Virus record (IMG/VR): IMGVR_UViG_3300005613_000026
Coordinates: 1 to 64,000 of that record
Strand: one strand, 5' to 3'
Length of the DNA stretch: 64,000 nt
Source: a virus
Shown one piece after another: positions 5,720 through 26,217 of the stretch. The notes beneath the pieces are model-generated. The model was not told where the DNA came from. It saw nothing but the letters and a program-made list of their open reading frames with translations, and made no database searches. Both the position numbers and the translations under genes were made by a program. Each line of letters starts with the position of its first letter. Within the stretch, counting starts at the first letter, position 1.

Positions 5720-6394
5720 TTACCAATTAAAATCATTACTCTCTTCACCACTACCTGTCGAGGCTGCAGCTGGCTCTGAAGAAGATATTTCATTTGTAGG
5801 AGAACTTTGAGCATCATCATCCTCAAAGGGTCCAAATAACTTCTTTTCTATTTCTTCAGGACTATCAATTCTGTAAATCTTGCCAAGACGCTCTCTATCA
5901 CCATCCATAACAGCCGAAAATGCTTCCAGCTCTTCTTGGGTCAAAGGAGTATCTTTTAAATAAGTTGCAGAATACTCTGTCTTGAGACCAGAACCTGTAA
6001 TTTTAATCTGCCAATCTCCACCGTCTTTATTGCCTCCAGGTTTCTGTCCTGTCGCTTCAAAACGGTCCCTGAAATGTTTAAAAACAGATACAGGTGCTTC
6101 CATAACTTTAATCTTGTTGCCATCGTTACGATCTATCACAAAAATAGCATAACGATTAGCAGGTTTCCTAAGCCCTGGATGCTCTGCTGCTACAGGGCAA
6201 TCTGTCGGATCTCCCGTTAAGGCTGTCCTAAGTTTACCATCTTCTCCTCTGTGAAAATACTTATAAAAATGCACAGGTTTGTGAAGAGGTCTTATTTTAT
6301 AGGTATTACCACTTTTCAACCTCAAGAAATCCAAATTACCTCCGTTACCAGAGGGTTTCGGTGCAACGTCTGACCAATCAACATATTCACTCAT
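5720..6394 (-). CDS. Single-stranded DNA-binding protein (gp32-like phage SSB)
   Basis: Likely start MSEYVDW at 6394 (AGGAG SD; the ORF-track extension overlaps a promoter). Has FLRLKSG..KIR, DCP, YAIFVIDR, ITGSGLKTEY motifs and an acidic tail ending DFNW; adjacent to recA. Confidence 0.75.
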   Translation of the reverse strand: MSEYVDWSDVAPKPSGNGGNLDFLRLKSGNTYKIRPLHKPVHFYKYFHRGEDGKLRTALTGDPTDCPVAAEHPGLRKPANRYAIFVIDRNDGNKIKVMEAPVSVFKHFRDRFEATGQKPGGNKDGGDWQIKITGSGLKTEYSATYLKDTPLTQEELEAFSAVMDGDRERLGKIYRIDSPEEIEKKLFGPFEDDDAQSSPTNEISSSEPAAASTGSGEESNDFNW

Positions 6395-6432
6395 CTTAAA
6401 AACTCCTAATAAAAAAATAAGGTTACCAAATA

Positions 6433-6461
6433 ATATTACATTAAAAACTTTCACTTTTCAA
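6433..6461 (-). promoter_or_regulatory. Class-1 promoter TTGAAA-N17-TAATAT upstream of ssb-recA-dnaG
   Basis: Minus strand reads TTGAAA AGTGAAAGTTTTTAATG TAATAT. Confidence 0.7.
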
Positions 6462-7644: not shown

Positions 7645-7926
7645 TCAAAAATCTAAGTCTATACTATCAGAGGAATGAGTCTCTGGTTTGCTATTTGTCC
7701 TTACTGCACCAATACATCTATTTACTCCATATTTGGCAACAGCTGCATTGTATGTTTTTTCAACATCTTCAAAGAATCTTTCCCTAAATTCATCCATCTT
7801 AAATATTCTTTCTTGCTCTGTTTCCCATTCCAAAACTTCTTCTTCTTCAACAACTACATCTAATTGCTCGTAATCCGCTGTCTTTATTTTACGAACTACA
7901 CCTTTTTTAACAACCGTCTTTGCCAT
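7645..7926 (-). CDS. Hypothetical protein
   Basis: 93 aa with an AAGGAG SD and an upstream TATAAT; ends SIDLDF. Confidence 0.7.
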   Translation of the reverse strand: MAKTVVKKGVVRKIKTADYEQLDVVVEEEEVLEWETEQERIFKMDEFRERFFEDVEKTYNAAVAKYGVNRCIGAVRTNSKPETHSSDSIDLDF

Positions 7927-7975: not shown

Positions 7976-10597
7976 TTATCCAAAAATATCGGCAGATTCG
8001 ACACCTTTTTTGGCAGCTTTTCTCATATCTTCACGAGCATTAATAAATTGCTCTACAACTTTCTTAGGTTGTTTTGAAACTTTTGTACCCCAGAATCCCT
8101 CTGTAGCTAAAGCCTCGACTGCTCTAGTATCTACAATAGATAAATCAATTTTTTCTACAAAATCCCTCATATCAGGTTTAAAAGGTTGATTCTCTACTAT
8201 GTTCTTTACAACATTACTCCCTATTCCCTTACAATGTAAACTAGGTCTAATCTCAGTTACTACTCCTTCTTTCGGATCTCCTACTTTTTCTATCGTATAA
8301 AACTCTTTAGAATTATTAATACTACGAGGTAAAAATTTAACATTCATTTTCTTTGTAAATTCTTTCTCGAATGCCGCAATTTTATCATACTTATCTGCAA
8401 CATGAGAGTTCAAAGTCACATCCATCAGAGAGCAAATAAACTCATTAGGATAATTAGCTTTAAGATACGCTGTAATATATGAGTTATAACCGTAACAAGC
8501 CGAATGAGCCTGGTTAAATCCATAAGAAGAGAATGGTTTAATAAACTTATCCCAATATTGTTGAGCAACACCATTCGGAACCCCATTCTCAACGCAACCA
8601 CTAATAAATTGCTTTTCAAATTTAGCCATCAAAAACTCTTTCTTTTTACCGATAGCTTTAATCATAATATATCCATCAGTAATAGTAAAATTGGCTAAAG
8701 CATTACAAATCTGCATGACCTGTTCTTGATAACAATTGGAAATAAGTATTCCATTACCAAATAAATTATGATTATCAGCTACAGACATTCCATAAAATTG
8801 AGCATCCTTTATTTTCTCTATAGACCGTATTTTGTAAAAAAATAAATGAGATTTATGAAAACCGTAATCATTTATAAACGAACCATTACACAAAGCACTC
8901 ACAGAGATCACATCTCTTTTATTATAATTACTTCTATTTATTTTATATTTTTTACAAAATGCCCTAACTGAAAGATCTTCTAATTTTCTTTTTTCCTCCA
9001 CATATGACTTTTTATAAAAAACTGTCTTACACTTCCATAGGACTTTAGCATCTTTCTTAATATTCTTCAAAACCATATAAGGAGCAATGTCATCTTTTAC
9101 TCTCCTTCCATTCTGAAAATATATTTTATTATCTTTTAATCTTGTTTCTATTGCAAGCCAATCGCACAGATGCCTCACATCCTCAAGAAGATCTTTATTC
9201 ACACTTGTGTAATTCACATATAAACGATTATCTTTACCATAACCAATATAGCCATCAGAATCAATTAGCCCAGCCAATAACGCTCTTTGAGACTCTTCTG
9301 TCATTTTAAAAATTATAGGAGGTATCCTCTTATTGTAACAATTCTTTCTTAAATCCAAATCATCAATTAATTTTCCAAATTTTGTCTTTCTATTACCACA
9401 ATTTACTTCCTTCCAATCCTCAACGAGTTCATCACAACTAATAGAGATATACCAACTTCTTGTATGAAAATATCTATGAGTTTTTAGTTTTGGCAAACGA
9501 TTATTTATCCATTTTTCTAATATCTCACTTTTTTCCTCATCTCCCACACAAATATTAACTCCTTTATGAATATTTCCGTCCCCAATTAACATCCCTATTA
9601 AATAAGAAACATCTTCATCCATCCCCAACCATGAAAAACAATTATATTTATCTGTATCAATACCCCTACACAAAACGGAAGGGCATCCAACTAAATCTAA
9701 ATCTAAATCTAAATCTTTTACCTCTTTCATCCCCTCCCATGTGTAAACTTTATGATCATCTGTTAAAGTTACAGACCTCCCATTGGACAAAGTTACTTTA
9801 TAGCCATCACACCTGCGAGTTGGGGCACATCCATGACACTCTTTTTCCTCTACAAAGGTTGAATCAGGATATGACAATACCATATCTGATTTTCTAACAT
9901 CCTTAATGGGTTTATGAGATCCATCTGCCATACTAATTAATGTATCTTCATGTATGCACAATACTCCATAAGTTTTCTCTAAATATGGTTTCACATAAGG
10001 TTCAATAGACTTGTGAAAATAACTGACAGACTTTTCGCCTCTCTTGCGAGCGCAATATTCAGGAATACTATCCATAGGACCAGGGCGATACAAAGCCAGA
10101 CCTGCAACTACATCATCAAAACGGTCTACACCAATATCTCTCATTGTCCTCTGCATACCGTATCTCTCGCATTGGAACACTCCTCCCAGATTCCCCCTTC
10201 GATATAGTTCTAAAGTCGGATCATCATCTAAAGGAAGATTCTCAATATCAAGATCTATATCATAATTCTCTTTTACTCTCTCCGCTGTTTTCTTAATAAC
10301 AGAAAGGGTAGCGATAGCAAGAATATCAAATTTTATTAAACCAAGTAGTTCCAAATCTTCATTCGGGAACTGAGTCGCAAGCACTCCTTTTTTAGCTGTT
10401 CTAAGAGGAGCTATCTCATCAAGAGGTACGTTAGACACTACCATCCCAGCAGCGTGAGAATTATGAACAATTACATTATTTGCTATATAATTATGTTCAC
10501 TCTGAAAAAAATCGGGACCAGTGTCAATAGAGACATCATAAACATCTTTAAAATCTAACTCTTGTATAGAATCTATTTCATAAAGTTCAATGTCCAT
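7976..10597 (-). CDS. dnaE: DNA polymerase III alpha (DnaE), fragment 3: split-intein IntC + palm/fingers/HhH, with an internal LAGLIDADG intein
   Basis: HN|SHAAG, LIKFDIL, GVFQ, ALYRPGP, YGVL|intein|CYQEQ, YGFNQAHS, AYLKANYP and KGIG motifs. Confidence 0.95.
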   Translation of the reverse strand: MDIELYEIDSIQELDFKDVYDVSIDTGPDFFQSEHNYIANNVIVHNSHAAGMVVSNVPLDEIAPLRTAKKGVLATQFPNEDLELLGLIKFDILAIATLSVIKKTAERVKENYDIDLDIENLPLDDDPTLELYRRGNLGGVFQCERYGMQRTMRDIGVDRFDDVVAGLALYRPGPMDSIPEYCARKRGEKSVSYFHKSIEPYVKPYLEKTYGVLCIHEDTLISMADGSHKPIKDVRKSDMVLSYPDSTFVEEKECHGCAPTRRCDGYKVTLSNGRSVTLTDDHKVYTWEGMKEVKDLDLDLDLVGCPSVLCRGIDTDKYNCFSWLGMDEDVSYLIGMLIGDGNIHKGVNICVGDEEKSEILEKWINNRLPKLKTHRYFHTRSWYISISCDELVEDWKEVNCGNRKTKFGKLIDDLDLRKNCYNKRIPPIIFKMTEESQRALLAGLIDSDGYIGYGKDNRLYVNYTSVNKDLLEDVRHLCDWLAIETRLKDNKIYFQNGRRVKDDIAPYMVLKNIKKDAKVLWKCKTVFYKKSYVEEKRKLEDLSVRAFCKKYKINRSNYNKRDVISVSALCNGSFINDYGFHKSHLFFYKIRSIEKIKDAQFYGMSVADNHNLFGNGILISNCYQEQVMQICNALANFTITDGYIMIKAIGKKKEFLMAKFEKQFISGCVENGVPNGVAQQYWDKFIKPFSSYGFNQAHSACYGYNSYITAYLKANYPNEFICSLMDVTLNSHVADKYDKIAAFEKEFTKKMNVKFLPRSINNSKEFYTIEKVGDPKEGVVTEIRPSLHCKGIGSNVVKNIVENQPFKPDMRDFVEKIDLSIVDTRAVEALATEGFWGTKVSKQPKKVVEQFINAREDMRKAAKKGVESADIFG
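8735..9958 (-). mobile_element. Contiguous 408-aa intein with LAGLIDADG homing endonuclease in DnaE
   Basis: Starts CIHEDT; block B TLTDDHKV; LIGMLIGDG and LAGLIDSDG motifs; ends GILISN before C+1. Confidence 0.93.
10460..10597 (-). mobile_element. Split intein C-half (IntC, 46 aa) of DnaE
   Basis: MDIELYEIDSIQELDFKDVYDVSI...HNYIANNVIVHN followed by Ser+1 (SHAAG). Confidence 0.92.
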
Positions 10598-12840: not shown

Positions 12841-13035
12841 TTAAAAAACCATCAATTTAAATCTTTCTCTTATATCACTAATGTAATAATCACATATTAC
12901 GGGTTTTAATTTAGGCTTATAACGTGGGGCAAAAAGAGCTTCTACATAATCATCTGGCATCAATCTTTGCCAATATTGTCTTAGCATATTTTTAGCATTA
13001 TCATCCAATTCTACTATTCGAACCAAATCAGCCAT
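12841..13035 (-). CDS. Small hypothetical protein between DnaE fragments 1 and 2
   Basis: 64 aa, TAATG-coupled to fragment 1; ends RERFKLMVF. Confidence 0.6.
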   Translation of the reverse strand: MADLVRIVELDDNAKNMLRQYWQRLMPDDYVEALFAPRYKPKLKPVICDYYISDIRERFKLMVF

Positions 13036-14474
13036 TAGTATCTATCTACTCCACCCATGTCAAACTCATATTCCCTATCATCATCTAGGTCATCCTTATC
13101 AAGAACTTTTTGAATTAAATCAACATCAAATCCAAAATCAGATTCATTAAGAAATCTCTTATTATCGAAACCTAAGAATCTTTCCCAAAGAAGATTCATC
13201 TCCACGGGATCTACTCCATAAGTTATGCCTAAACATCTTAAAAGAACACTGGCATAACCAGACCCTCTTCCAGGCCCAACTAAAATACCCTTTTTTCTAG
13301 CATTTATTATATAATCTCTTACAATAAGAAAATAGGTACTAAAATCATAATTATTAGAATCATAAGCTACTTGAACATCTTTAAGCTCTTTCTTCAAAGC
13401 ATCAACGTGTTTTTTACTCTTATCCCATCCTATCTTTTTCATGCCTTCCCAAGCTAAATCTTTAAGATAATCATAAGAATTTGAATATTTTTCAGGAATT
13501 TTAAATTCTGGCAACCGCATGCCTCCAAATAAATTTTCCTCAATATCTTTAGTATTAATTCTTTCTGCCATCCTAACTGAATTAGTGAAACATTCAGGAT
13601 GACTACCAAAAATCTTTGCCATCTCTTGGGCACTTTTAAGATAAAACTCCATATGAGTAAAACTTAATCTCTTAGGATCTCTAAGACATCTGCCTTGAGA
13701 CATACACATAAGCACTTCTTGAGATGGACCTTGTTCTTTATGAATATAATGGCTATCATTTGTACAAATAACAGGAATACTCAAATCCTTAGATAACTTA
13801 AATATATCAGGAAGAATTTCTCTTTCTTCGGGAATACCATGATACATAGCTTCTAAGAAAAAATTGCCATCAAAGACATCATTTAATAACCCAGCAGCTT
13901 CTCTAGCCTTATCATATCTACCATACATTAAATTAACATTGATAATACTAGACATACAAGCAGAGCTACCCATTACACCCTCTGAATGAGCAGCTAAGGC
14001 ATTAATATCTATACGAGGATCAGAATAAAAACCTTCTACAAAAGAAGCCTGGGATAACCTACAAATATTCTGATAACCTTTATAATTCATTGCAAAGAGA
14101 TTTAGATGTCTATTACCTTTTCTTCCATCAGGCTGATTCTTTTTAGGTTCCCCTCTCTTCTTTTTCTTATCATCATATTGCCCAATATCCATTTTTCTAG
14201 ATACATAAGTTTCGCACCCCAAAATGGGTTTAATTGAGGGATATGGTATGTCTTTATTTTTCTTGTCTTTAGTTGCTCTGCATTCCTTTAAGAATTTAAT
14301 CCATCCCATTATATTCCCGTGATCGCTAATAGCCATAGCTGGAAAACCCATTTTTCTAGCTTGTAAAACTAACTGATCTAATTTTGCAAGACCATCAAAT
14401 TGTGAAAATTCTGAATGTACATGCCAGTGCACAAAATCTTCATTTCGAAATTCCATAAAATATTTCTCCATCAA
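13035..14474 (-). CDS. dnaE: DnaE fragment 1: PHP domain + start of palm (GRGS motif), no intein
   Basis: HWHVHSEFSQFDG, SDHG, GCETY, RHL, SACM, TNDSHY, YFLIV, GPGRGSG and LLWERFL motifs, then an acidic tail and stop. Confidence 0.95.
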   Translation of the reverse strand: MMEKYFMEFRNEDFVHWHVHSEFSQFDGLAKLDQLVLQARKMGFPAMAISDHGNIMGWIKFLKECRATKDKKNKDIPYPSIKPILGCETYVSRKMDIGQYDDKKKKRGEPKKNQPDGRKGNRHLNLFAMNYKGYQNICRLSQASFVEGFYSDPRIDINALAAHSEGVMGSSACMSSIINVNLMYGRYDKAREAAGLLNDVFDGNFFLEAMYHGIPEEREILPDIFKLSKDLSIPVICTNDSHYIHKEQGPSQEVLMCMSQGRCLRDPKRLSFTHMEFYLKSAQEMAKIFGSHPECFTNSVRMAERINTKDIEENLFGGMRLPEFKIPEKYSNSYDYLKDLAWEGMKKIGWDKSKKHVDALKKELKDVQVAYDSNNYDFSTYFLIVRDYIINARKKGILVGPGRGSGYASVLLRCLGITYGVDPVEMNLLWERFLGFDNKRFLNESDFGFDVDLIQKVLDKDDLDDDREYEFDMGGVDRY

Positions 14475-14494
14475 TTATTTCTTCAGTAAATATA

Positions 14495-14692
14495 CTAATC
14501 CATATCTATAAGATCAACTCTACTTACTACTTCTCTTTTGTCAGTAAAAACCACCACTCCGTCATCATCAACAACTTCATATCCCTTTGGATAATTCTCC
14601 ACATGTATTTCTGCATATTTAGAGGCATCATCAGGTGTCTTATATTCTGTCTTCTTTCTATTTTCGCCTATAGGTTTAATAAAATATCCCAT
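14495..14692 (-). CDS. Hypothetical protein with C-terminal SRVDLIDMD motif
   Basis: 65-aa ORF in the operon. Confidence 0.65.
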   Translation of the reverse strand: MGYFIKPIGENRKKTEYKTPDDASKYAEIHVENYPKGYEVVDDDGVVVFTDKREVVSRVDLIDMD

Positions 14693-14694
14693 AA

Positions 14695-15060
14695 CTACTC
14701 ACTTTCAATATCTAAATAATCTAAACGGGTCAATCCTGGCTGAACTTGTATCATTCTATCAATCGTTGTAATAGCATTTATCTTAACAACATCACTATAA
14801 TCTACAGCTTTAATTGTTGTACAAGCCCCATGATCAAAAATAATGAAATCAACTTTCGGAGATTCAACCTTCTTAACTCTTACTTTATTATAAAAAATTT
14901 CCTTATAATCCCCCACGCTAGGAAAGTATTTTTTAAGTGTTAAAGAGAACTCTATTCTCTCTTTTTTGAGGTTATTAAGCAAAGTGGTAATAGTCTCTTC
15001 CTCGATAACTTTTTCATTACAAATTGTAGTAATAATATGTTCTTTCCTTACAAATCTCAT
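14695..15060 (-). CDS. Hypothetical protein with C-terminal TRLDYLDIESE motif
   Basis: 121-aa ORF with an ATGA overlap with the upstream gene. Confidence 0.65.
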   Translation of the reverse strand: MRFVRKEHIITTICNEKVIEEETITTLLNNLKKERIEFSLTLKKYFPSVGDYKEIFYNKVRVKKVESPKVDFIIFDHGACTTIKAVDYSDVVKINAITTIDRMIQVQPGLTRLDYLDIESE

Positions 15061-15233
15061 TCCCCGAATTCCTTTTGAAATAAATCCATCATTCTATCTC
15101 TTTCGGCAAAAGCAAAATCTGTATCACGAGCTGCCTTGCTATATAGGTCAGGAAGCATATCGGAAAACATCTTAATATCAGATTTTGAATAAGGGGTAAA
15201 ACAAACTTCATCTTCTTTACGTCTAGCATCCAT
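15057..15233 (-). CDS. Small hypothetical protein (58 aa, not in the ORF track)
   Basis: Manual translation MDARRKEDEVCFTPYSKSDIKMFSDMLPDLYSKAARDTDFAFAERDRMMDLFQKEFGE; AGGAG SD; fills the gap exactly. Confidence 0.7.
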   Translation of the reverse strand: MDARRKEDEVCFTPYSKSDIKMFSDMLPDLYSKAARDTDFAFAERDRMMDLFQKEFGE

Positions 15234-15250
15234 TAAATTCTCCTAAAATT

Positions 15251-15487
15251 CTACAACTTTATATGAACTGGTCTTAAAGGAGGCTCATCATCTCTTCTCC
15301 GACTCGTACTTTGAGTTGGCTGTGACTTTTCTCCTGGTCTTGGTTTTCTAGGACACATCGTCCCATCGGGAGCTTCGTAAGGTCTATCCTTATCATTAAA
15401 TTCCCTTATCTCTCTAAAAACCTCTTCTGTTTTAGGGTGTTTATACTCATAAAATTTATATGTTTTTCTCATAAAGTCCTCTAACAA
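15251..15487 (-). CDS. FmdB-like ribbon protein lacking CxxC pairs, paralog B
   Basis: FYEYKHPKTEEVFREIR...PYEAPDGTMCPR, similar to the adjacent ORF. Confidence 0.55.
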   Translation of the reverse strand: MLEDFMRKTYKFYEYKHPKTEEVFREIREFNDKDRPYEAPDGTMCPRKPRPGEKSQPTQSTSRRRDDEPPLRPVHIKL

Positions 15488-15741
15488 TGTCTAGTGGGAT
15501 CATATCTTTCTCTATGTCCATCTTGAAATCTAATATACTTAGGTTTTACTTTTTTTACATAATCTGGATCTGCTTCAAATGCTTCTCTATCAGACCTCCA
15601 CCCTCTTACGGTTTCAGGAACTTGAAGTCTTTCACATTTTGCTCCATCCTCTGCTATATAAGGCTTATCTATGTCTTTAAAGGGTCTAAGTTCTTCAAAT
15701 ATTTCCCCTGTTTCAGGATGCTTGAATTGGTAAATTGGCAT
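15481..15741 (-). CDS. FmdB-like ribbon protein lacking CxxC pairs, paralog A
   Basis: MPIYQFKHPETGEIFEELR...PYIAEDGAKCERL matches the MPxYxYxCxxCGxxFE layout with the Cys replaced. Confidence 0.6.
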   Translation of the reverse strand: MPIYQFKHPETGEIFEELRPFKDIDKPYIAEDGAKCERLQVPETVRGWRSDREAFEADPDYVKKVKPKYIRFQDGHRERYDPTRHC

Positions 15742-16334
15742 TACTCTTCCTCCTCTATATCCATTATATCAAATCTATTAAATTTATTTTTTTCTTCTCT
15801 TTCTTTTTCTCTCTTCAATTTTCTTTCTTTTTCTTCGGGAGATTCTGAAGAATAAAAAGATTGCTTTACAGACCATTCACCTAACGTAATATCAGGGGTA
15901 TCATCTTCAATAGGATAAAAGACTGAAGTTTGCGAGACTTCCTCAACATCATGATTTAGAGAAATAGTCCAAGACGTACCTCCAGCAGTATCAATTCCCC
16001 ATGAAGTACTTCCGTTCGTCGCTCCGAATATATTACAATCAGAATAATTCAACTGATAAGGATATATTAAATCATACAATAATCCACTATGACCATTATT
16101 CGCTTCGATATTTGAGACCTCTCCAGAAGTATCATCTCTGATCTCTTCTACACCATACGTATCCATCAAATTAATATTTCCAGGTGAATTTTGCAATATC
16201 TGATAAAACAAAAGAGGGACCTCTCCCTCAGGAACATTTTTCCTGTAATCCAGATAATATAGGCGAGCATTATGATACTTCTCTTCATCTTTAAAGACAA
16301 TTATCTTGCCCTCTGTGCAACACTCATAACTCAT
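15741..16334 (-). CDS. Hypothetical protein with C-terminal NRFDIMDIEEEE motif
   Basis: 197-aa ORF, TAATG-coupled to the next gene. Confidence 0.65.
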   Translation of the reverse strand: MSYECCTEGKIIVFKDEEKYHNARLYYLDYRKNVPEGEVPLLFYQILQNSPGNINLMDTYGVEEIRDDTSGEVSNIEANNGHSGLLYDLIYPYQLNYSDCNIFGATNGSTSWGIDTAGGTSWTISLNHDVEEVSQTSVFYPIEDDTPDITLGEWSVKQSFYSSESPEEKERKLKREKEREEKNKFNRFDIMDIEEEE

Positions 16335-16349
16335 TCTGTGTAACTCTTG

Positions 16350-17168
16350 TTAAAAATCCATCAAATCGAAACGGTTTGTTTCTTCAACCGTTTTAGTGCA
16401 TCCAGTCCCTTCTGCCATTTTTCTCTCATAAAGAGAGATTATCTCCTCACCCCTCTTATAAGCTAATTCTTTTCTTTTTTCATTCCACTTTTTACCAAAT
16501 CTTTTCCAAAATTCGCTCCTACGCCATTTAGAATAACCGTTATATTGCCTAATAGTTATATCGTTTTTAGCGAGAATAATCTCCAAAGCTTTTTCTGACA
16601 TAATATCCACCAAAAATGGGTAGTAATTCCATTTTATAATCTGTTCATCAGTATAACCCTTATTCCTCAAATAACCAAGAGTCCAGCCATAGGCAAATTC
16701 TTCCCATATTTCCCTGCTGGAAGAAGAACCTCCTTCCTCAACAAAACAGTAATGACACAATTCGTGAGCTACTACTTCATCTTTTTTAAGCTTAGCCTTA
16801 ATACTCATATCATAACGAGCAGGAGACCTACTATTTATAGGTGCATAGGCTGCAATCACTATTTCTTTAGAACATCTGTCATAAAACCCTCCTGCTCCAC
16901 CATATCCAAGAACCTCTAATAATCTTGGACTTACTTTGTACAAAACAACTTCCTTTACATTCGAACCAGGAAATAAATTATCTACATAATCAAAAGCTTC
17001 AGGATAATCCTCATATCTTATAAGCTTTGTATTCGGACTTTTACGAATTTTTTCCATAGATTTAAGATGCTTTGCATGTGATGCAGTCTGCCTATCTCTC
17101 TTCTCCCTCTGATTCCTGGTCTTTTCAGCTTGACTTACTTTTTTTTGTTTATTAAATGATTTAGCCAT
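16350..17168 (-). CDS. Putative zincin-type metalloprotease, C-terminal NRFDLMDF motif
   Basis: GGFYD, VVAHELCHY (HExxH) and downstream EEFAY; likely start MAKSFNK at 17168. Confidence 0.6.
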   Translation of the reverse strand: MAKSFNKQKKVSQAEKTRNQREKRDRQTASHAKHLKSMEKIRKSPNTKLIRYEDYPEAFDYVDNLFPGSNVKEVVLYKVSPRLLEVLGYGGAGGFYDRCSKEIVIAAYAPINSRSPARYDMSIKAKLKKDEVVAHELCHYCFVEEGGSSSSREIWEEFAYGWTLGYLRNKGYTDEQIIKWNYYPFLVDIMSEKALEIILAKNDITIRQYNGYSKWRRSEFWKRFGKKWNEKRKELAYKRGEEIISLYERKMAEGTGCTKTVEETNRFDLMDF

Positions 17169-17382
17169 CTTTAGTATACCCGTTACAAGCAACAACAAAA
17201 CAAGGATCAGAACCCTTAGCAAAAACCTTCATAGTTTTAGTGACTCCTAAAATACTAACTTTTCTTTTCTCAATTGGATTAGAACAATCCTGAGTTTTGC
17301 AATCTTCACACAGAGGCATTACAAACCCTTGGGGTGTAGCATTTAATTTGTCAATAGGAATTGTTTTACATTTATATTCCAT
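17161..17382 (-). CDS. Small Cys-rich hypothetical protein
   Basis: 73 aa with CEDCKTQDC and CFVVAC; coupled to neighbours. Confidence 0.6.
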   Translation of the reverse strand: MEYKCKTIPIDKLNATPQGFVMPLCEDCKTQDCSNPIEKRKVSILGVTKTMKVFAKGSDPCFVVACNGYTKDG

Positions 17383-18008: not shown

Positions 18009-18217
18009 TATTTAGTCTCCTTGAGTCTTTTTCTCAATTTTTCTAAGAATTCTATTCTTAATTCAAGCATTTTTTCATCCGCATCTTTTATAAATTTCGG
18101 CTTTTTCACAGACTTTACTACACCTCCGCAATAAGGACATTTAGTTCCATATATATTATTGTAATTTTTTTTCTCAAATTCATTTCCACATTTTTCACAA
18201 AATAGAACCATAATCAT
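18008..18217 (-). CDS. Small zinc-ribbon protein
   Basis: CEKCG...CPYCGG motif. Confidence 0.65.
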   Translation of the reverse strand: MIMVLFCEKCGNEFEKKNYNNIYGTKCPYCGGVVKSVKKPKFIKDADEKMLELRIEFLEKLRKRLKETK

Positions 18218-20235: not shown

Positions 20236-21765
20236 TTACATATCATCAATAAAAGCAAAATCACTATCATCTGAAGATTCTGTGGATTCTCCTGTTGCAA
20301 ACACTTCTTCAAACATTACATCTTCATCATCTTTTACAGGAGCTGGAGCAGCTATAGCTTCATCTAAATCATCTAATATATCATCTCCAGGAATATCTTC
20401 AAAACCAGTCTGGCTACGAATTAAGAACATATCAGGAATAACCTCTAAAGTAGCCCTTACTTCTCCCCCTGCAAAAGTCTGAGGACCATTACGAGATTTA
20501 ACACAAAAAAGATCAATTAACTGGTTGGGCTGAGAGGTACTCTTAAGTTGAGCATAAATATTATCAGCATCTGCAGCATACTCATGGGAGCCTCTAATAT
20601 CTTCAGAATGAATAGCAGCTTTATCTCTATTAGCTCCTGCTTTTCTAATCTTCTTTAAAAAATCCCTTCCTAACTGAGCCGCCGAGATTACAGCAAAGCC
20701 CATAGTTTTCCCCATATGCCTCATACCTTTCATCATATCACCAATTTCAAGATCATTACGACCATGACGATCTTGATGAGCTTCTAAATTAGCTATATAG
20801 TCTATAACTACTAAATCTGGTTTAAACATCTCTATATGACGCTTAATATGATTATTAATAGCAGGAACAGTCGTTCTTTCCGATTCTTGAAGAATAAAAA
20901 ATCTACCCGCTCTCTCTGACAAATCTTTATTAGCATTTTTTATTTTTTCTAATTGCTCATCAGTAAGGTTTTCAAGATCTTTAGTAATAAGTCCATATGG
21001 AACACGAGCTTGCCGAGCCATTACTCTCCTCCACATCTGATCCTTATCCATTTCAAGAGGAACGAATAATACGTTATATCCTTGTTCCCATATATTCAGG
21101 GCGACATTCATCATTATAGTACTCTTATATCCCCCGACATCAGCACAGAAGAGGGTTAATGTTCCTTTCTCAAATCCAGTAACCATTGTTTCATCAATTT
21201 CTTTAATGTCGCAGGTTATTAATTTCTTCTTTTCAATTTTACCTTCTTTGTAATCTTCGATATATTTAATATTAGACTCTGATAACGTACAAATATCATC
21301 ATAAAAAAAATCATTATTTTCAGGTACTGATTCATACAGAATTTCATCTAATTTATCAATTAGATCTTTTGTAGCTTTAATCTTATTTGTTTTAAATTCT
21401 TCATCAAATTTCCTAAGATGGCTAGATATTGAATTTTCAATATGCCTGGTATTAATCTGATTTAATAATACATGATAGTTGTCTGGATCTGTTCTAGAAA
21501 CAAAACACTGTCTAAACTTAGCCTTCTCACTAACTCTTTCTTTAGGAGATTTTAGACTCTCCACCATTTCTTCATATGCTTTTTTTGTTAGTTTAGAATT
21601 ATTTTTTAAATAGACTTCTTCTATACAAGATAGTAAGAATCTATACTTATAATTAAATGATTCTTTAGAGACTTTGCTCTCTATAAAGTCTCCTACTAGT
21701 CTTTTATAATGAAGCAGAAGATATATAAATTCTTCTTCTGGCTCTGAAATCTTTTTTTCACTCAT
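20236..21765 (-). CDS. dnaB: DnaB-like replicative helicase
   Basis: ADVGGYKS, PLEM, VVIDYI, SAAQL, EDIRGS, DAD and KSRNG motifs. Confidence 0.9.
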   Translation of the reverse strand: MSEKKISEPEEEFIYLLLHYKRLVGDFIESKVSKESFNYKYRFLLSCIEEVYLKNNSKLTKKAYEEMVESLKSPKERVSEKAKFRQCFVSRTDPDNYHVLLNQINTRHIENSISSHLRKFDEEFKTNKIKATKDLIDKLDEILYESVPENNDFFYDDICTLSESNIKYIEDYKEGKIEKKKLITCDIKEIDETMVTGFEKGTLTLFCADVGGYKSTIMMNVALNIWEQGYNVLFVPLEMDKDQMWRRVMARQARVPYGLITKDLENLTDEQLEKIKNANKDLSERAGRFFILQESERTTVPAINNHIKRHIEMFKPDLVVIDYIANLEAHQDRHGRNDLEIGDMMKGMRHMGKTMGFAVISAAQLGRDFLKKIRKAGANRDKAAIHSEDIRGSHEYAADADNIYAQLKSTSQPNQLIDLFCVKSRNGPQTFAGGEVRATLEVIPDMFLIRSQTGFEDIPGDDILDDLDEAIAAPAPVKDDEDVMFEEVFATGESTESSDDSDFAFIDDM

Positions 21766-22587
21766 TTATCGACCTATTATTTCCTTGCTTAAAGGAATGA
21801 GAAATGTGTTTTTATTCTGTACTATTTTGGAGATTCCAACACCCATATTCTCTTCTATATTAAAATGCTGTTGGATATCAAATTTGAAAACTAGAATAGT
21901 TGGCAAATTACTTTCTACTCTATCTATAAAAAAAGAATCAATTGTATCAACAAGATATGCCTGTTGCTCTCTAGAAGCATAGTGAGGTCGAATTATGTTA
22001 TCCACTACCAACCATGTACAACTTCTTAACTGAGCTGCTGTTTCAGTATCATTGCGAATTTCGTCTTTAAGTCTTGGGAAATCGACCCAATCATAGCTTT
22101 GGCCTCTTTGCCCTTTTCTAATCCTAAGTTTTATCGCCTCTGCCAGAGCTATAGAAGCTATTAAAGTTCTTCCTATTTTTTCTGGAGATTTACCATAAAT
22201 AACAAGACCAGCACCTTCTTTAAGTCTTCTAGACATCATAGAATTATGACGCATATACTTGCTAATATCTTTGTCATTCCCTTTGAATTCTGAGAAAAGA
22301 TTTGTCCAAGTTCTTCCCCAACAATATTTACAAATAGAATCTTTGGCTTGAATAGCTATATCCTCTGGAATAACTCGAACCGATTGTCCATCTTTAGATA
22401 TCTGACCATCAAAATCAAATATATTAAGATTAGGTTCGGGAACGTACAAATCAATATAAGCCCTAACCTCAGCCATCATAGAACATTTATAAAGAGAATC
22501 TCCACAAAGCTCATGTGGAGACTTCTCATAATACTTATTAGAAAAGAAACTTAAATATTTTTTCTTTAAACCTTCAATATTTTTCAT
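21766..22587 (-). CDS. DnaC/IstB-like helicase loader with degenerate Walker A
   Basis: GLVIYGKSPEKIGRT, WLVVDNI and RVESNLPTIL motifs; directly upstream of dnaB. Confidence 0.65.
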   Translation of the reverse strand: MKNIEGLKKKYLSFFSNKYYEKSPHELCGDSLYKCSMMAEVRAYIDLYVPEPNLNIFDFDGQISKDGQSVRVIPEDIAIQAKDSICKYCWGRTWTNLFSEFKGNDKDISKYMRHNSMMSRRLKEGAGLVIYGKSPEKIGRTLIASIALAEAIKLRIRKGQRGQSYDWVDFPRLKDEIRNDTETAAQLRSCTWLVVDNIIRPHYASREQQAYLVDTIDSFFIDRVESNLPTILVFKFDIQQHFNIEENMGVGISKIVQNKNTFLIPLSKEIIGR

Positions 22588-23681
22588 AGATCAAGTTCTT
22601 TTTCACCACTACCCATTTCTACTTTTTCTTTATAAACCGCATTGGCTTTACGACAACGAGTCTCAGCCCACTCTCGAATTCCCTCAAAATCTCCTTCACG
22701 CATTACAGACAAAGGTTTAAAAGTTGCCATTGCATCAATGATATCCTTAGTTTTAATTACTCTTCTCTTGTCTCGAAAACCAACAACCATTGCTTCAGTG
22801 ATAGCTTTTTCAAGTTCAGCTCCGCTATATCCTTCTCCCCTTACAGCTATTGAATGAAGATCAAATTTCTTAGGGTTCAAGCCTCGACGTTTCAAATGAA
22901 CTTCAAGAATTTCAACCCTTTCATCTAGGTAAGGCAAATCAACAAAAAAGATTTCATCGAAACGACCTGGACGAAGAAATTCAGGTGGTATTGCTTCTTG
23001 ATCGTTAGCAGTTGCTACAACAAAAACAGAACTAGTTTTCTCCTGCATCCATGTTAAAAAAGTTGACAAAACTCGACTTGTTGTTCCCCCATCGCTCTGA
23101 CCACTTGACCGAACGCCACTAATAGCTTTTTCAATCTCATCAATCCATAAAATTGCAGGAGCAACTGCCTCTGCTAAGCGTATTGCTTCACGAGCATTCT
23201 TCTCGGAATCACCAACAAGGGACCCGAAAAGTTTACCAAAATCCAACCTCAGTAAAGGCATGTTCCAGTAACCACTGATAGCCTTACAAACCAGAGACTT
23301 GCCGCAATTATGAGAAACTATTCCGTTAGAATAATATCTGCTTTCCTCACTATCAACTTGTAAATCAAAAGTGTCCATCTCTCCGATATATGATTTTCCA
23401 ACTATCTTAATATTTCCATTTTTAGTAACAACACAATCAATATTCTCATTAACATCCTTTGACTCTACCCACCCATCTGTTGTTAATATCTTATGACTCT
23501 CAGAACAACTGAGTTCCACTCCATCTTCTAATATAAGATTGTAACATTTTTTATTTTTTTTTCTAACAAGAAAATTTATATCTTTCCACCCATCAGGAGT
23601 CTCTATTTGATATACCCCTTCATCTTCGCACATTTTGAAAAAATCAGAAATTTCCACTTCTTTAATTTCATCAACATTCAT
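22584..23681 (-). CDS. Ycf46-like AAA+ ATPase, C-terminal fragment carrying a 125-aa IntC
   Basis: SHN|CGKSL, LLRLDFG, LWIDEIEK, VATAN, PPEFLRPGRFDE and YSGAELE motifs. Confidence 0.93.
   Translation of the reverse strand: MNVDEIKEVEISDFFKMCEDEGVYQIETPDGWKDINFLVRKKNKKCYNLILEDGVELSCSESHKILTTDGWVESKDVNENIDCVVTKNGNIKIVGKSYIGEMDTFDLQVDSEESRYYSNGIVSHNCGKSLVCKAISGYWNMPLLRLDFGKLFGSLVGDSEKNAREAIRLAEAVAPAILWIDEIEKAISGVRSSGQSDGGTTSRVLSTFLTWMQEKTSSVFVVATANDQEAIPPEFLRPGRFDEIFFVDLPYLDERVEILEVHLKRRGLNPKKFDLHSIAVRGEGYSGAELEKAITEAMVVGFRDKRRVIKTKDIIDAMATFKPLSVMREGDFEGIREWAETRCRKANAVYKEKVEMGSGEKELDL
23307..23681 (-). mobile_element. Atypical split intein C-half (125 aa, includes block B)
   Basis: ETPDGW, ELSCSESHKILT, TFDLQV and YYSNGIVSHN, then Cys+1. 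Confidence 0.92.
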
Positions 23682-24583
23682 AATAATTTCCTTTCTTTGT
23701 TAAATATTACTTGTATACGTTCTTCATATTTTTCTACAAACTTTATTTCTTTTTTTAACCATAAATTTAAGATATCATCAATATTCATAATGTCAACATC
23801 TACTATCCTATATTCTAAACCATTATCTTTACAAAAATTAATAGCTGCTTCTTTCTTTTTTACATTTAATGGAGTATTCATTAATTTTTCAGGTTTTATC
23901 TCAATTAAAATTCTATCCTCTAAAATAAAATCTGGTCTATATGTCCTATCATTACCTTTATGGTCTTTATATTTAATTTTAATTCCTTTTTCAGCACTTC
24001 TCCATTTAATTTTATTTTTTTCTATCACCTCTACCATATACGATAATTCTCTTAAACTTCTAAAATACCATCCTTTGTACCACCCGCTCCATCCTCCTCC
24101 ACTTCCATGAGGAGAAGGCTTCCCATACATAGGATTATTTGAGCCAGATGAATTAACAGACCTAATTTCTGACAATTCTTTCATTCTTAAATCTGCATTT
24201 TCTACTCCATATTTTTTCACCCATATATCATAGAAATTTTTACCATACATAGCATTATTTTTTCCAGAAGTAACTTTTGACATTTTTTCTTTAAATTTTG
24301 CAGTTTTATAAATATTAAAGTCCCTATCCTTAATCATCTTTACCTTTGATTCTTCCGTATGCCTTTTGCCGAAAAAAGGATTACCAGAACCCTTATATTT
24401 TTTACTTAATAATGCAGCTCTTTCTTTATTTTTTAATATCACTTCTGGTCTTAAATGGGCATTCTTATGACTGCAAGAAATACAACATAACATCTTTTTT
24501 TCCGCAGTATTTCTATTTTTCTTATTAGAATAACTTAACTCTTTTCCACACTGTGGACAACTCCTGAAATATCTCTTATCCAT
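23678..24583 (-). CDS. Free-standing homing endonuclease (NUMOD3-like repeats + TnsA-like PD-(D/E)XK) between the AAA intein halves
   Basis: GNPFFGKRHTEESK, NNAMYGK and NNPMYGK repeats; FRSLRE, YRPDF and IEIKP motifs; likely start MDKRYF at 24583. Confidence 0.85.
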   Translation of the reverse strand: MDKRYFRSCPQCGKELSYSNKKNRNTAEKKMLCCISCSHKNAHLRPEVILKNKERAALLSKKYKGSGNPFFGKRHTEESKVKMIKDRDFNIYKTAKFKEKMSKVTSGKNNAMYGKNFYDIWVKKYGVENADLRMKELSEIRSVNSSGSNNPMYGKPSPHGSGGGWSGWYKGWYFRSLRELSYMVEVIEKNKIKWRSAEKGIKIKYKDHKGNDRTYRPDFILEDRILIEIKPEKLMNTPLNVKKKEAAINFCKDNGLEYRIVDVDIMNIDDILNLWLKKEIKFVEKYEERIQVIFNKERKLL

Positions 24584-24649
24584 AATATAATATCCTTTCA
24601 CAAAAGCATATCCTTAATTGACATGCTAGACAATGGACTATTATATTAT
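24581..24649 (-). promoter_or_regulatory. Long RNA hairpin sequestering the endonuclease RBS and AUG
   Basis: Outer stem AUAAUAUAAUA(G)UCC / GGAUAUUAUAUUAU (14 bp, one bulge); inner stem AGCAUGUC / GAUAUGCU (8 bp). Confidence 0.75.
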
Positions 24650-25707: not shown

Positions 25708-26217
25708 CTACGATGGAGACAATGTTGTTGATATTCTAATAGCCTTGCCTCCTTTTGAAACTTGCAAAGGAGACCAAGTAGCTTTTGATTCAAATTTCTC
25801 CAAACTTTCTTCAATTTTCATTCTTCCCTGTTCAACCAATCCTTTTTCCCTTCCTCTCAACTCAACAGTATAATGGACTATATATCTTTTGTCAAGGAAA
25901 TTTTCAACTTTTTTTTCTTTTATTTCTAAATCATGATCAGAAATACGGTAACTAAAACGAATTTCTTTAGTAACTCTTTTTTGAGATTTCTTCTTTTTAG
26001 ATTCTCGATATTTCAACTTACCATAATCCAAAATTTTACAAACAGCTAATTTTCCGTGCTGTTCAGGAGCCATCTCAACTAAATCTAAATCCATTTCTCT
26101 GGCCATTTCAACGGCCTCTTTTAATTCTACCCCTCTTTGTATCCCCTCTCCTTCAGGAAGTACAAGATCTACTCTATTCGATTTAATTTGATAATTAATC
26201 TTGTGATCTTTGCTCAT
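25708..26217 (-). CDS. infC: Translation initiation factor IF-3
   Basis: INYQI, EAVEMAREMDLDLVEM, VCKILDYGKLKY, KEIRF, ISDHDLEIK and RGRE motifs. Confidence 0.92.
   Translation of the reverse strand: MSKDHKINYQIKSNRVDLVLPEGEGIQRGVELKEAVEMAREMDLDLVEMAPEQHGKLAVCKILDYGKLKYRESKKKKSQKRVTKEIRFSYRISDHDLEIKEKKVENFLDKRYIVHYTVELRGREKGLVEQGRMKIEESLEKFESKATWSPLQVSKGGKAIRISTTLSPS

What the first reader, a model, noticed from the sequence alone, without database searches (positions are those of the whole stretch)
12841..17168. Shared C-terminal peptide tag R-h-D-h-h-D-h on unrelated neighbouring proteins
Seen: four otherwise dissimilar proteins end SRVDLIDMD* (14495), TRLDYLDIESE* (14695), NRFDIMDIEEEE* (15741) and NRFDLMDF* (16350). 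Weaker variants are ERFKLMVF* (12841), SIDLDF* (7645), GILDWSDF* (6463) and the AAA ATPase's own KELDL* (22584). The Arg codon differs (AGA vs CGT), so the constraint acts on protein rather than being a DNA repeat. Inference: a phage-wide docking or sorting signal read by one hub. Candidates are the Ycf46-like AAA+ ATPase (unfolding, export or packaging tag), a sliding clamp, or a capsid-targeting receptor. One tagged protein is an HExxH protease, which would suit effector delivery. This is the best candidate here for an undescribed system.
Basis: partly seen in the sequence, partly recalled or inferred. Interest (0 to 1): 0.8.

Follow-up and report, generated by a model that had tools for sequence, protein, structure and literature searches.

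The report
Shared address tail on huge-phage proteins
Dozens of small, unrelated proteins of this huge uncultured phage and its relatives end in the same seven-residue tail, which behaves like an address label read by one partner that is probably, but not provably, the phage's own DNA sliding clamp.

Summary
R-h-D-h-h-D-h occurs 4 times in the 66 ORFs (28,535 aa) of the window's 87.6-kb contig, and all 4 lie within 4 residues of a C-terminus (P 2e-7). The four proteins are not paralogs. Codons vary synonymously.

The tail is kept in 62 of 63 homologs of the HExxH protein. It recurs genome-wide in relatives: 11 C-terminal and 2 N-terminal of 13 matches in a 219-kb relative, and 54 of 57 matches in a complete 548-kb relative. 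A complete 461-kb relative uses an Arg-less spelling. Orthologs re-spell the tail genome by genome, so one lineage-specific reader is implied.

My best guess (about 0.35) is the clade's own beta-type sliding clamp, because the tail nearly matches the RB69 polymerase clamp-binding tail. However, DnaE, ligase and methylases carry a different D-[I/M]-F motif. Rivals are the neighbouring AAA+ ATPase, another replisome or host protein, and head loading.

Three of the four "weaker variants" are other motifs.

The scan found this tag before on other DNA (e1-5376628). My four literature searches found no description.

The parts
16350..17222 (-). Tagged protein 1. It is a zincin-like HExxH protein (probable start 17168, 272 aa) and ends NRFDLMDF*; the tag is at 16353-16373.
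   Evidence: ORF and tail. 62 of 63 homologs keep the tail. H135, E136, H139 and E156 are invariant. The AF2 model has pLDDT 87.9, and the tail is a short low-confidence helix after a disordered linker. The VIA-wide top rows are all zincins at Z 8.0-5.0, and Foldseek gives E >= 0.17. No Pfam or PHROG hit.
15741..16334 (-). Tagged protein 2, 197 aa. It ends NRFDIMDIEEEE*; the tag is at 15756-15776.
   Evidence: Its ortholog in the 219-kb relative (32% identity) ends DRFDILDFD. No Pfam or PHROG hit.
14695..15060 (-). Tagged protein 3, 121 aa. It ends TRLDYLDIESE*; the tag is at 14707-14727.
   Evidence: Orthologs end TRWDFLDIREE (G001), TRWDILDL (G005) and GFFDYIDIEE (G006).
14495..14692 (-). 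Tagged protein 4, 65 aa. It ends SRVDLIDMD*; the tag is at 14501-14521.
   Evidence: Its ortholog (53% identity) ends SRTDLIDWD.
12841..13035 (-). Tagged protein 5, 64 aa, with a decayed tag ERFKLMVF* at 12844-12864. It lies between two pieces of DnaE.
   Evidence: Its ortholog in G001 ends KRFELMDI.
7976..10597 (-). C-terminal part of the intein-split DnaE (Pol III alpha). It ends ESADIFG* (7979-7996). This is a second, different terminal motif (h-D-[I/M]-F) and a candidate clamp-binding motif of the clade.
   Evidence: DnaE tails in four genomes are SADIFG, GADIFG, SVDMFEDLF and SVDIFG. Compare the E. coli alpha internal clamp peptide IGQADMFGV (PMC11139829, passages) and T4 gp43 EKASLDFLFG (PMC6212786, passages).
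7645..7926 (-). 93-aa protein just downstream of DnaE, ending SIDLDF* (7648-7665). It is a DnaE-type tail, not the R-tag.
   Evidence: Orthologs end EVDFDFS, EIDMFD and ADFDFLS.
22584..25659 (-). Ycf46/PAN/FtsH-like AAA ATPase in two ORFs (24646-25659 and 22584-23681) with an endonuclease gene between them. Its own tail is KELDL* (22587-22601). It is a candidate reader or fellow client.
   Evidence: NCBIfam AAA and intein rows. The intact 552-aa orthologs are 61-73% identical over the aligned parts. The tail [K/R]-x-[L/I]-D-[L/I] recurs in most of the 120 listed homologs and in Corndog gp96 (RVLDL). In the AF2 model the tail (531-552) is disordered and not docked.
20236..21765 (-). DnaB-type helicase ending DFAFIDDM*. 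This is an acidic/aromatic tail of another kind.
   Evidence: Orthologs end EEDDWDF, QDIDDVF and NFDFEDF.
5720..6454 (-). Phage single-strand DNA-binding protein ending SNDFNW*. This is an acidic/aromatic tail of another kind.
   Evidence: PHROG SSB families. Orthologs end EDFNPDW, DDFANNW and GNFDIDF.

Best explanation
SHOWN. The ending [R]-F/h-[D/E]-h-[L/M/I]-[D/E]-h, followed by 0-4 acidic residues, is a protein-level short linear motif. It sits behind a variable, disordered linker at the extreme C-terminus (rarely near the N-terminus) of many small proteins. These proteins are mutually unrelated, have no recognisable domains and are not among the large proteins. The motif is used by a clade of uncultured phages; the two complete records are 461 and 548 kb. 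Each genome spells it in its own way on all its carriers.

INFERRED (about 0.8). It is a docking peptide, an address tag, read by one lineage-specific and therefore probably phage-encoded partner.

INFERRED, and my commitment for the partner (about 0.35). The tail plugs into the hydrophobic pocket of the clade's own beta-type sliding clamp, as the C-terminal tails of the T4/RB69 polymerase, gp55 and gp33 plug into gp45 and as Q-phi-x-[L/M]-[F/L] peptides plug into bacterial beta. The tagged proteins would then be tethered to clamps left on replicating phage DNA. Among them is a zincin-like protease, by the same logic as PCNA-bound SPRTN.
For: Enrichment and position:
- Own contig: 4 of 4 matches are C-terminal.
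- G001: 11 C-terminal and 2 N-terminal of 13.
- G005: 54 of 57.
- Shuffled means are 0.1-0.9 matches.

Conservation: the tail is kept in 62 of 63 homologs at 39-100% identity, while the roughly 12 residues before it vary.

Unrelated bodies: the 54 tagged G005 proteins fall into 37 body clusters, and the window's five do not hit each other.

Protein-level constraint: codons are synonymous-variable.

Concerted re-spelling in two ortholog families:
- NRFDLMDF / DRFDLMDLD / DRFDLLDL / TVFDVLDLE.
- TRLDYLDIESE / TRWDFLDIREE / TRWDILDL / GFFDYIDIEE.

Structure: the tail is a short helix on a disordered linker in the AF2 model.

For the clamp specifically:
- RB69 gp43 ends SLFDMFDF. Against NRFDLMDF that is F, D, D and F identical, at the very C-end.
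- PMC6212786 (passages) says the RB69 and T4 tails bind gp45.
- The pattern x-h-D-[L/I]-[M/L] resembles the QLDLF consensus (PMC11139829, passages).
- RB69 itself uses two spellings, gp43 versus gp55 SLDFLYEDDN. A second spelling beside the DnaE one is therefore not disqualifying.
- A beta-like clamp (TIGR00663 E 6e-8) lies about 2 kb downstream of DnaX in G001. It is conserved in 4 of 5 further relatives, including both complete ones, and has an invariant RF.AGSGG.FAI block.
- The window's tagged genes lie inside the replication module.
Against: - No binding was or could be tested.
- The recognisable clamp-type clients carry a different terminal motif, [D/N]-[I/M]-F(-G): DnaE in 4 of 4 genomes, an NAD ligase, an endonuclease VII, an HNH nuclease and several DNA methylases.
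- 0 of 15 R-tagged proteins scanned have any Pfam family at or above its curated cut-off, against 4 DNA enzymes among 10 carriers of the other motif (Fisher P 0.017).
- Gln-1 of the beta motif is Arg or absent, and position 2 is mostly aromatic.
- 54 clients in one genome is far more than any known phage clamp has.
- The clamp is only 31-34% identical between genomes that spell the tag almost alike, while the DnaE tail stays nearly constant.
- No clamp gene is in the window's own contig, which is 18% complete.
- No gp45 or PCNA type was found.
Confidence: 0.35

Rival explanations
1. The reader is the neighbouring Ycf46/PAN/FtsH-like AAA+ ATPase. The tail docks tagged proteins on the ring as substrates (a timed degron) or as adaptors. 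The tagged zincin-like protease docks the same way, which would give a two-piece FtsH-like machine.
For: - The AAA gene lies 5-9 kb from the tagged HExxH gene in all four genomes.
- Its closest NCBIfam rows are unfoldases: PAN, FtsH and CDC48.
- Its own flexible tail ends in the tag's last three residues and follows its spelling. It is LDL* where tags end LDL* (G003-G005), IDIE*/IDLE* where tags carry a trailing E (G006, L082), and QLEI* beside a tag ending LMEF* (L085).
- It is far better conserved than the clamp, at 57-65% versus 31-34% identity.
- AAA+ rings are known to read short terminal peptides at either end (ssrA, the SspB tail, Vps4 MIT-MIM; recalled).
Against: - The AAA family with the same [R/K]-x-h-D-h tail is widespread without the tag. 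Of 80 IMG/VR loci, only 8 have 2 or more tag-like C-ends in the 10-kb flanks, 5 have one and 67 have none. Mycobacteriophage Corndog gp96 ends RVLDL with no tag family among 46 neighbouring proteins.
- The AAA's commonest neighbours are DnaB (33 of 80 loci), a primase-like protein (29) and DnaE (22). It may therefore be a replisome factor and a fellow client.
- No ClpP or proteasome/HslV family was found in 5 relatives.
- The tail is not docked on the AAA's own body in the AF2 monomer.
- The co-variation rests on few lineages.
Confidence: 0.2
2. The reader is some other single protein. It could be another phage replication or recombination protein (DnaB, SSB, RecA or an unannotated module protein), RNA polymerase, or a host hub. 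The tail would belong to the wider class of acidic-hydrophobic replisome tails.
For: - Several replisome proteins of the clade end in an acidic-hydrophobic tail of their own kind. These are DnaE, DnaB, SSB, the AAA, and the 93-aa and 392-aa proteins.
- The window's tagged genes are interleaved with replication genes.
- Many module proteins have no annotation.
Against: - No positive evidence for any particular candidate.
- 'Many tails, one reader' is the known behaviour of clamps rather than of helicases or SSBs (recalled).
- A host hub fits poorly with a spelling that changes between close relatives, although the hosts are unknown.
Confidence: 0.25
3. The tail is a loading signal that packs variable small proteins into the phage head for injection, like the capsid-targeting sequence of the T4 internal proteins.
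For: - There are many small, fast-evolving, mostly unrelated proteins, partly in tandem arrays. 32 of the 54 in G005 lie at 120-160 kb.
- The scan has met leader-type cargo tags in other huge phages (e1-5368247, e1-5368281; unchecked notes).
Against: - The tail is C-terminal.
- I noticed no recurring cleavage-like motif before it, but I did not test this formally.
- In the window the genes sit tightly packed and co-directional inside the replication module, between DnaE pieces, primase and helicase.
- None of the large (900 aa or more) proteins carries it; the largest carrier is 263 aa.
- No virion data exist.
Confidence: 0.1
4. There is no shared function. The endings would reflect common descent of the genes, a DNA-level repeat at gene ends, or chance.
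For: Some carriers are paralogs: one family of 12 and one of 5 in G005.
Against: - 33 of the 37 body clusters in G005 are singletons.
- Synonymous codons vary at the tag positions; in G005 at all seven.
- Shuffles give 0.1-0.9 matches against 4-57 observed.
- The tail is conserved while the adjacent linker is not.
Confidence: 0.02

Closest known systems
Sliding-clamp-binding tails of T4-type phages (T4 gp43 ...EKASLDFLFG, ligase loop, gp33; RB69 gp43 ...KKASLFDMFDF, gp55 ...SLDFLYEDDN)
   Same: - A 6-8-residue acidic-hydrophobic peptide at the very end of otherwise unrelated proteins.
- RB69 SLFDMFDF against window NRFDLMDF shares F, D, D, F and the stop.
- An acidic extension is allowed, as in gp55.
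- More than one spelling occurs within one phage.
- Binding of these tails to gp45 is stated in PMC6212786 (passages).
   Different: - About five known clients there (recalled), against 54 here in one genome.
- There the polymerase carries the tail. Here DnaE carries a different one.
- The clamp here is beta-like, and no gp45 family was found.
- The clients here have no recognisable function.
Bacterial beta-clamp-binding motif, Q-phi-x-[L/M]-[F/L] and Q-phi-x-[L/M]-x-[F/L] (PMC11139829, passages)
   Same: - A short linear motif in disordered termini, read by one pocket of one hub.
- The middle of the tag (h-D-[L/I]-[M/L]) fits x-phi-x-[L/M]-[F/L].
- N-terminal copies exist, as in Hda (recalled).
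   Different: - Gln-1 is Arg or missing.
- Position 2 is mostly Phe, Trp or Tyr.
- A conserved D-h follows the pentapeptide.
- The clade's DnaE tail (SADIFG) is the closer match to QADMFG.
Terminal peptides read by AAA+ machines (ssrA tag, SspB C-terminal ClpX-binding tail, ESCRT-III MIM tails read by the Vps4 MIT domain; all recalled)
   Same: - A variable body, a flexible linker and a short terminal peptide.
- Many clients and one ring.
- An AAA+ unfoldase is encoded a few kb away, and its own tail resembles the tag.
   Different: - No sequence likeness to those tags.
- The AAA family occurs widely without the tag.
- No partner chamber protease was found.
The same tag reported earlier by this scan on the 461-kb relative (e1-5376628), and tags on other huge phages (e1-5557268)
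   Same: - The same clade and the same kind of tail.
- Up to about 60 carriers per genome.
   Different: - This window carries the Arg-bearing spelling.
- New here: the separate D-[I/M]-F motif on DNA enzymes, the AAA-tail comparison over 80 loci, the codon test and the RB69 comparison.

Membership tests
Bacterial beta-clamp-binding motif (CBM) | Gln at position 1 | tested here: not met
   Position 1 is Arg in 4 of 4 window tags and in the G001 and G005 tags. There is no fixed residue in G006. The motif definition is from PMC11139829.
Bacterial beta-clamp-binding motif (CBM) | Aliphatic residue at position 2, [L/M] at 4, [F/L] at 5 | tested here: inconclusive
   In the window, position 2 is F, F, L, V; position 4 is L, I, Y, L; position 5 is M, M, L, I. 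In G005, position 2 is Phe in 35 of 54 tags and position 5 is L or M in 53 of 54.
Bacterial beta-clamp-binding motif (CBM) | Lies in a disordered stretch or at a terminus | tested here: met
   The tag lies 0-4 residues from the C-end. In the AF2 model, the last three 10-residue blocks (251-272: linker and tail) have pLDDT 71, 58 and 46.
Bacterial beta-clamp-binding motif (CBM) | A cognate beta clamp is available | tested here: inconclusive
   There is no DnaN family hit in the window's own contig, which is 18% complete. A beta-like ORF is present in G001 (TIGR00663 E 6e-8, below the cut-off) and in 4 of 5 further relatives.
Bacterial beta-clamp-binding motif (CBM) | Binds the clamp pocket | not testable with these tools
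   No complex prediction or binding assay was available.
T4/RB69 gp45-binding tail | Acidic-hydrophobic peptide at the extreme C-terminus resembling LDFLF or LFDMFDF | tested here: met
   RB69 gp43 ...SLFDMFDF* against NRFDLMDF*. T4 motifs are from PMC6212786.
T4/RB69 gp45-binding tail | gp45-type trimeric clamp encoded | tested here: not met
   PF02916 was found in 0 of 2 records. The first-look filter may miss divergent forms.
T4/RB69 gp45-binding tail | Carried by the replicative polymerase | tested here: not met
   DnaE ends SADIFG, GADIFG, SVDMFEDLF or SVDIFG, not the R-tag.
AAA+ docking tag or degron | Tag co-occurs with the AAA+ across phages | tested here: not met
   8 of 80 AAA loci have 2 or more tag-like C-ends in 10-kb flanks, and 67 have none. 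Corndog has none. Flanks, not whole genomes, were scanned.
AAA+ docking tag or degron | Partner protease present | tested here: inconclusive
   No ClpP or proteasome family was found in 5 relatives. A tagged zincin-like protein is present.
T4 capsid-targeting sequence | N-terminal leader removed by the head protease; carriers found in virions | tested here: not met
   Location is C-terminal in 4 of 4, 11 of 13 and 54 of 57 matches. Cleavage and virion content are not testable here.
Zincin metallopeptidase (for ORF 16350-17222) | HExxH plus a downstream Glu; zincin fold | tested here: inconclusive
   H135, E136, H139, E156 and E157 are invariant or nearly so in 35 sequences. VIA-wide top rows are all zincins (2h1j Z 8.0, rmsd 7.2, 210 aligned; SPRTN 6mdx Z 6.6, rmsd 3.8, 105 aligned), which is in the range the tool calls common. 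Foldseek best E is 0.17. No Pfam family.

The most novel reading that the evidence does not exclude
The tail is not a clamp motif. It would be the address code of a private protein-handling system. The Ycf46-like AAA+ ring, whose own conserved tail ends in the same h-D-h, would read it. The tagged zincin protease would dock by it to make a split FtsH-like machine. The roughly 50 tagged small proteins per genome would be swappable adaptors or timed substrates, so about 7% of the called ORFs would be wired to one unfoldase.
Probability: 0.15. Interest if true: 0.85.

Novelty: new variant of a known kind. Interest (0 to 1): 0.62.

Why it matters
If one seven-residue tail wires 54 of 802 called ORFs of a huge phage to a single partner, these genomes hold a large, easily recognisable set of functionally linked unknown proteins.

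If it is the AAA+ ring, this would be a new phage-encoded protein-handling system.

The tail is also a ready-made, portable peptide and partner pair for testing. Its per-genome spelling offers natural specificity variants.

Tried and rejected
Annotation of the carriers:
- Pfam and PHROGs on 10 window proteins (5 of them tagged) gave no family above a curated cut-off; the few rows are weak, E >= 0.001.
- Pfam on 10 tagged proteins of relatives gave nothing above cut-off.
- blastn and tblastn of the region and of the HExxH protein against 50,697 phage records gave no match.

Looking for a clamp:
- Searches in the own contig (PF00712, PF02768) gave 0 hits.
- gp45 and PCNA families gave 0 hits in 2 records.
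- TIGR00663 by family search in 5 relatives gave 0, although a protein search then found the clamp in 4 of 5. Family searches through that tool therefore miss divergent members, and this also weakens the ClpP and proteasome negatives.

Testing the AAA as reader:
- The AF2 model of the intact AAA, made to see whether its tail docks on its own body, shows a disordered tail.
- I looked for AAA columns that are acidic in Arg-spelling lineages and not in six Arg-less ones. This gave positions 20, 86, 344 and 434 of P0064, with no baseline for how many to expect. It is a lead only.

Other checks:
- The clamp alignment of 5 genomes shows no simple charge swap matching loss of Arg.
- Zinc-ribbon content of carriers is 8 of 54 against 57 of 614 small ORFs, which is no clear enrichment.
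- Terminal enrichment of the 4-residue D-[I/M]-F pattern is only modest (P 0.008, 0.30, 0.045, 0.010 in four genomes). That motif rests mainly on which proteins carry it, and it is not kept in every ortholog; for example, the G006 ligase lacks it.

Literature:
- Six tag spellings searched as strings returned 2 papers, both chance letter runs.
- The other searches were 'huge phages' / 'C-terminal motif' / 'sliding clamp' and 'clamp-binding motif' / bacteriophage / 'small proteins' / 'C-terminal tail'.
- None of the listed papers, seen as titles and abstract starts only, describes such a tag.
- PMC7162821 (huge phages) was seen only as a listing.

Limits:
- All ORF sets are my own greedy longest-ORF calls (45 aa or more, at most 60 nt overlap), not a gene finder. 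Starts, and hence the N-terminal copies, are uncertain.
- SSB-tail, ssrA, SspB, MIM, HslU-tail and SPRTN-PCNA comparisons are recalled and were not tested.

Full report
WHAT THE WINDOW IS. The window is the first 64 kb of an 87,575-bp linear IMG/VR virus contig. CheckV rates it 18% complete. G+C is about 32% and essentially all genes are on the minus strand.

The stretch around the finding is a replication module. It holds an intein-split DnaE, a DnaB helicase, primase parts, a RecA-like protein, an SSB, a Cas4-like exonuclease and an AAA ATPase. A homing-type endonuclease gene lies between the AAA's two ORFs. No cultured phage is close: blastn found nothing, and DnaE is at most 38% identical to any phage record.

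In my greedy ORF set of the whole contig (66 ORFs, 28,535 aa), R-h-D-h-h-D-h matches four times and nowhere else. Every match is 0-4 residues from the C-end. Shuffled proteomes give 0.1 matches on average, and the chance that all four fall in the last few positions is 2e-7.

The Arg codons are AGA, AGA, CGT and CGT, and the other positions also differ in codon. The five carriers in the window do not hit one another at E <= 0.01. They have no Pfam family, and the only PHROG row is a weak integrase hit (E 0.0058) for the 64-aa protein at 12841.

CONSERVATION. The HExxH protein has 63 homologs at 39-100% identity in the large protein collection. 62 of them end in [F/Y]-x-h-[L/M/I]-[D/E]-h plus 0-3 residues, and the exception is a 175-residue fragment. 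In an alignment of 35 of them, F267 and D271 of the tail are at least 90% conserved, while the dozen residues before it are not.

The AF2 model built on this alignment (pLDDT 87.9) shows a compact body. A low-confidence linker follows, and then a short terminal helix.

A GENOME-WIDE TAG IN RELATIVES. I fetched three relatives whole. G001 is 219 kb and 44% complete. G005 is 547,943 bp and rated complete. G006 is 460,978 bp with terminal repeats.

With a slightly widened Arg pattern, the counts are as follows:
- G001: 13 matches, of which 11 are C-terminal, 2 are near the N-terminus and 0 are elsewhere.
- G005: 57 matches, of which 54 are C-terminal (P 3e-70; shuffled mean 0.9).
- G006: no Arg spelling. 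It uses h-F-D-h-I-D-L-E instead; for the Arg-less core, 5 of 8 matches are C-terminal and 1 is N-terminal.

The 54 G005 carriers are 58-263 aa long, with a median of 111. 32 of them lie in arrays at 120-160 kb. With the tail removed they fall into 37 clusters, 33 of them singletons. In G005 all seven tag positions use several synonymous codons, for example six Arg codons.

CONCERTED RE-SPELLING. Orthologs of two window proteins carry the local spelling of each genome:
- HExxH family: NRFDLMDF (window), DRFDLMDLD (G001), DRFDLLDL (G005), TVFDVLDLE (G006).
- 121-aa family: TRLDYLDIESE, TRWDFLDIREE, TRWDILDL, GFFDYIDIEE.

Unrelated proteins in one genome therefore change together. This is what one expects if all are read by one partner that itself differs between lineages.

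THE 'WEAKER VARIANTS'. ERFKLMVF is a decayed true copy, because its ortholog ends KRFELMDI. The other three are different things:
- SIDLDF belongs with the DnaE tail.
- GILDWSDF belongs to a Trp-containing tail conserved in its own family.
- KELDL is the tail of the AAA family at large.

A SECOND TERMINAL MOTIF. DnaE ends SADIFG, GADIFG, SVDMFEDLF and SVDIFG in the four genomes. The same h-[D/N]-[I/M/L]-F sits at a terminus of several other proteins:
- an NAD-dependent ligase (G005, N-terminal);
- an endonuclease VII (N-terminal, G006);
- a treble-clef zinc-finger protein (N-terminal, G006);
- an HNH nuclease (N-terminal, G006);
- at least four DNA methylases, with C-terminal VDIFKG, TNIFGD, PIFGD and NMFPGE.

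It resembles the E. coli alpha peptide IGQADMFGV (PMC11139829, passages) and the T4 gp43 tail EKASLDFLFG (PMC6212786, passages).

Its terminal enrichment as a four-residue pattern is only modest, and not every ortholog keeps it. I therefore treat it as a candidate clamp motif. What matters is the contrast. 4 of 10 scanned carriers of this motif are DNA enzymes, against 0 of 15 scanned R-tag carriers (Fisher P 0.017).

WHO READS THE R-TAG: THE CLAMP. The clade encodes a divergent beta-type clamp. In G001 it is a 421-aa ORF about 2 kb downstream of an intein-bearing DnaX, with a sigma-like gene and a FabD-like gene between them. It matches TIGR00663 at E 6e-8 and a PDB DnaN weakly. It is present in 4 of 5 further relatives, including both complete genomes.

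The tag's nearest known look-alike is the clamp-binding tail of the RB69 polymerase. I read that tail from the RB69 record as ...KKASLFDMFDF. Against NRFDLMDF it shares F, D, D, F and the terminal position. RB69 gp55 ends SLDFLYEDDN, so one phage can use two spellings and an acidic extension.

Several things weigh against the clamp:
- the separate motif on the obvious clamp clients;
- Arg instead of Gln at position 1;
- the sheer number of carriers;
- a clamp only 31-34% identical between genomes whose tags are almost the same.

WHO READS IT: THE AAA ATPase. This gene lies a few kb from the tagged genes in all four genomes. It is related to PAN, FtsH and CDC48. It ends in [K/R]-x-[L/I]-D-[L/I], which are the last residues of the tag, in most of the 120 listed homologs. 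Its tail follows the local tag spelling in the few lineages available: LDL with ...LDL, IDIE with ...IDLE, and QLEI with ...LMEF.

But 442 IMG/VR contigs encode a relative. Among the best 80 loci, only 8 have two or more tag-like ends in the 10-kb flanks, and all 8 belong to this clade. 67 loci have none, and many of those still show the same AAA tail. Corndog gp96 ends RVLDL with no tag family nearby.

The AAA's most frequent neighbours are DnaB, a primase-like protein and DnaE. It may therefore be a replisome factor and itself a client of the same reader. In the AF2 model its tail is free. No ClpP or proteasome family was found in five relatives, although that search tool also missed the clamp by family.

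OTHER READINGS. Head loading is not excluded. However, the window's carriers sit inside the replication module, and none of the large (900 aa or more) proteins carries the tail. Paralogy, a DNA repeat and chance are contradicted.

THE TAGGED HExxH PROTEIN. It has invariant H-E-x-x-H and a downstream E-E-F-A-Y-G-W block. Structure comparison gives only zincin peptidases at the top, but at scores the tool itself calls common. These include M3, M1, lethal factor, SPRTN and IrrE (Z 8.0-5.0; Foldseek E >= 0.17). 'Zincin-like, probably a protease' is as far as this goes.

VERDICT. This is a real, strongly conserved, lineage-specific terminal docking tail carried by 54 of 802 called ORFs in one complete genome of the clade. 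Its reader is unidentified.

- clamp, 0.35;
- AAA ATPase, 0.2;
- another single phage or host protein, 0.25;
- head loading, 0.1.

The scan had already met this tag on the 461-kb relative (e1-5376628). I found no description in print in four searches.

Noticed in passing
window 25708-26217 (-): A phage-encoded translation initiation factor IF-3 homolog (Pfam IF3_N E 5e-19, IF3_C E 7e-13). It sits just upstream of the AAA ATPase and is conserved in G001, G005 and G006.
   Followed up: partly
window 7979-7996; also G005 70837-72918 and G006 101194-101655, 297267-297989, 49017-49592: A second terminal motif, h-[D/N]-[I/M]-F(-G), is found on DnaE, NAD ligase, endonuclease VII, an HNH nuclease and several DNA methylases. 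It is a candidate clamp-binding motif of the clade and is distinct from the R-tag.
   Followed up: partly
window 22587-22601; loci L077-L156; Corndog L076 28356-30056: The Ycf46-like AAA ATPase family (442 IMG/VR contigs) has a conserved C-terminal [R/K]-x-[L/I/V]-D-[L/I/V], with a subgroup ending ...EDDL. It usually lies next to DnaB, a primase-like gene and DnaE, which suggests an unrecognised replisome role.
   Followed up: partly
window 6463-7641 (-): A 392-aa protein between DnaE and SSB has a (KEES)n acidic repeat, a conserved helical C-half and a conserved G-h-h-x-W tail. Its function is unknown.
   Followed up: no
window 27175-31455 (-): A 1426-aa ResIII/Helicase_C helicase is interrupted by intein splicing and LAGLIDADG domains, with two stretches each.
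   Followed up: no
window 2409-2759 (-) and 18195-19181 (-): A SpoVS-like protein (Pfam E 1.4e-8). Separately, an ORF that by eye looks like ribose-phosphate pyrophosphokinase; that ORF was not scanned.
   Followed up: no
G005 136-153 kb (loci L053-L054): A dense array of about 40 small genes, nearly all ending in ...R-[F/A/S]-E-I-L-D-L. It includes a 12-member paralog family and many singletons, several with CxxC pairs.
   Followed up: partly
G001 146942-152823 (L010): DnaX with an intein, then a sigma-like protein, a FabD-like malonyl transacylase and the beta-like clamp in one row. Only the clamp was scanned; the other names come from reading the sequences.
   Followed up: no
G001 172245-172571 and 172865-173227; G006 280637-281083: The tag also occurs near the N-terminus of cysteine-rich small proteins (GISRFEIMDLW, EQFRFDIIDFG, KKTLFDIIDLEDG). 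The start codons are not verified.
   Followed up: no
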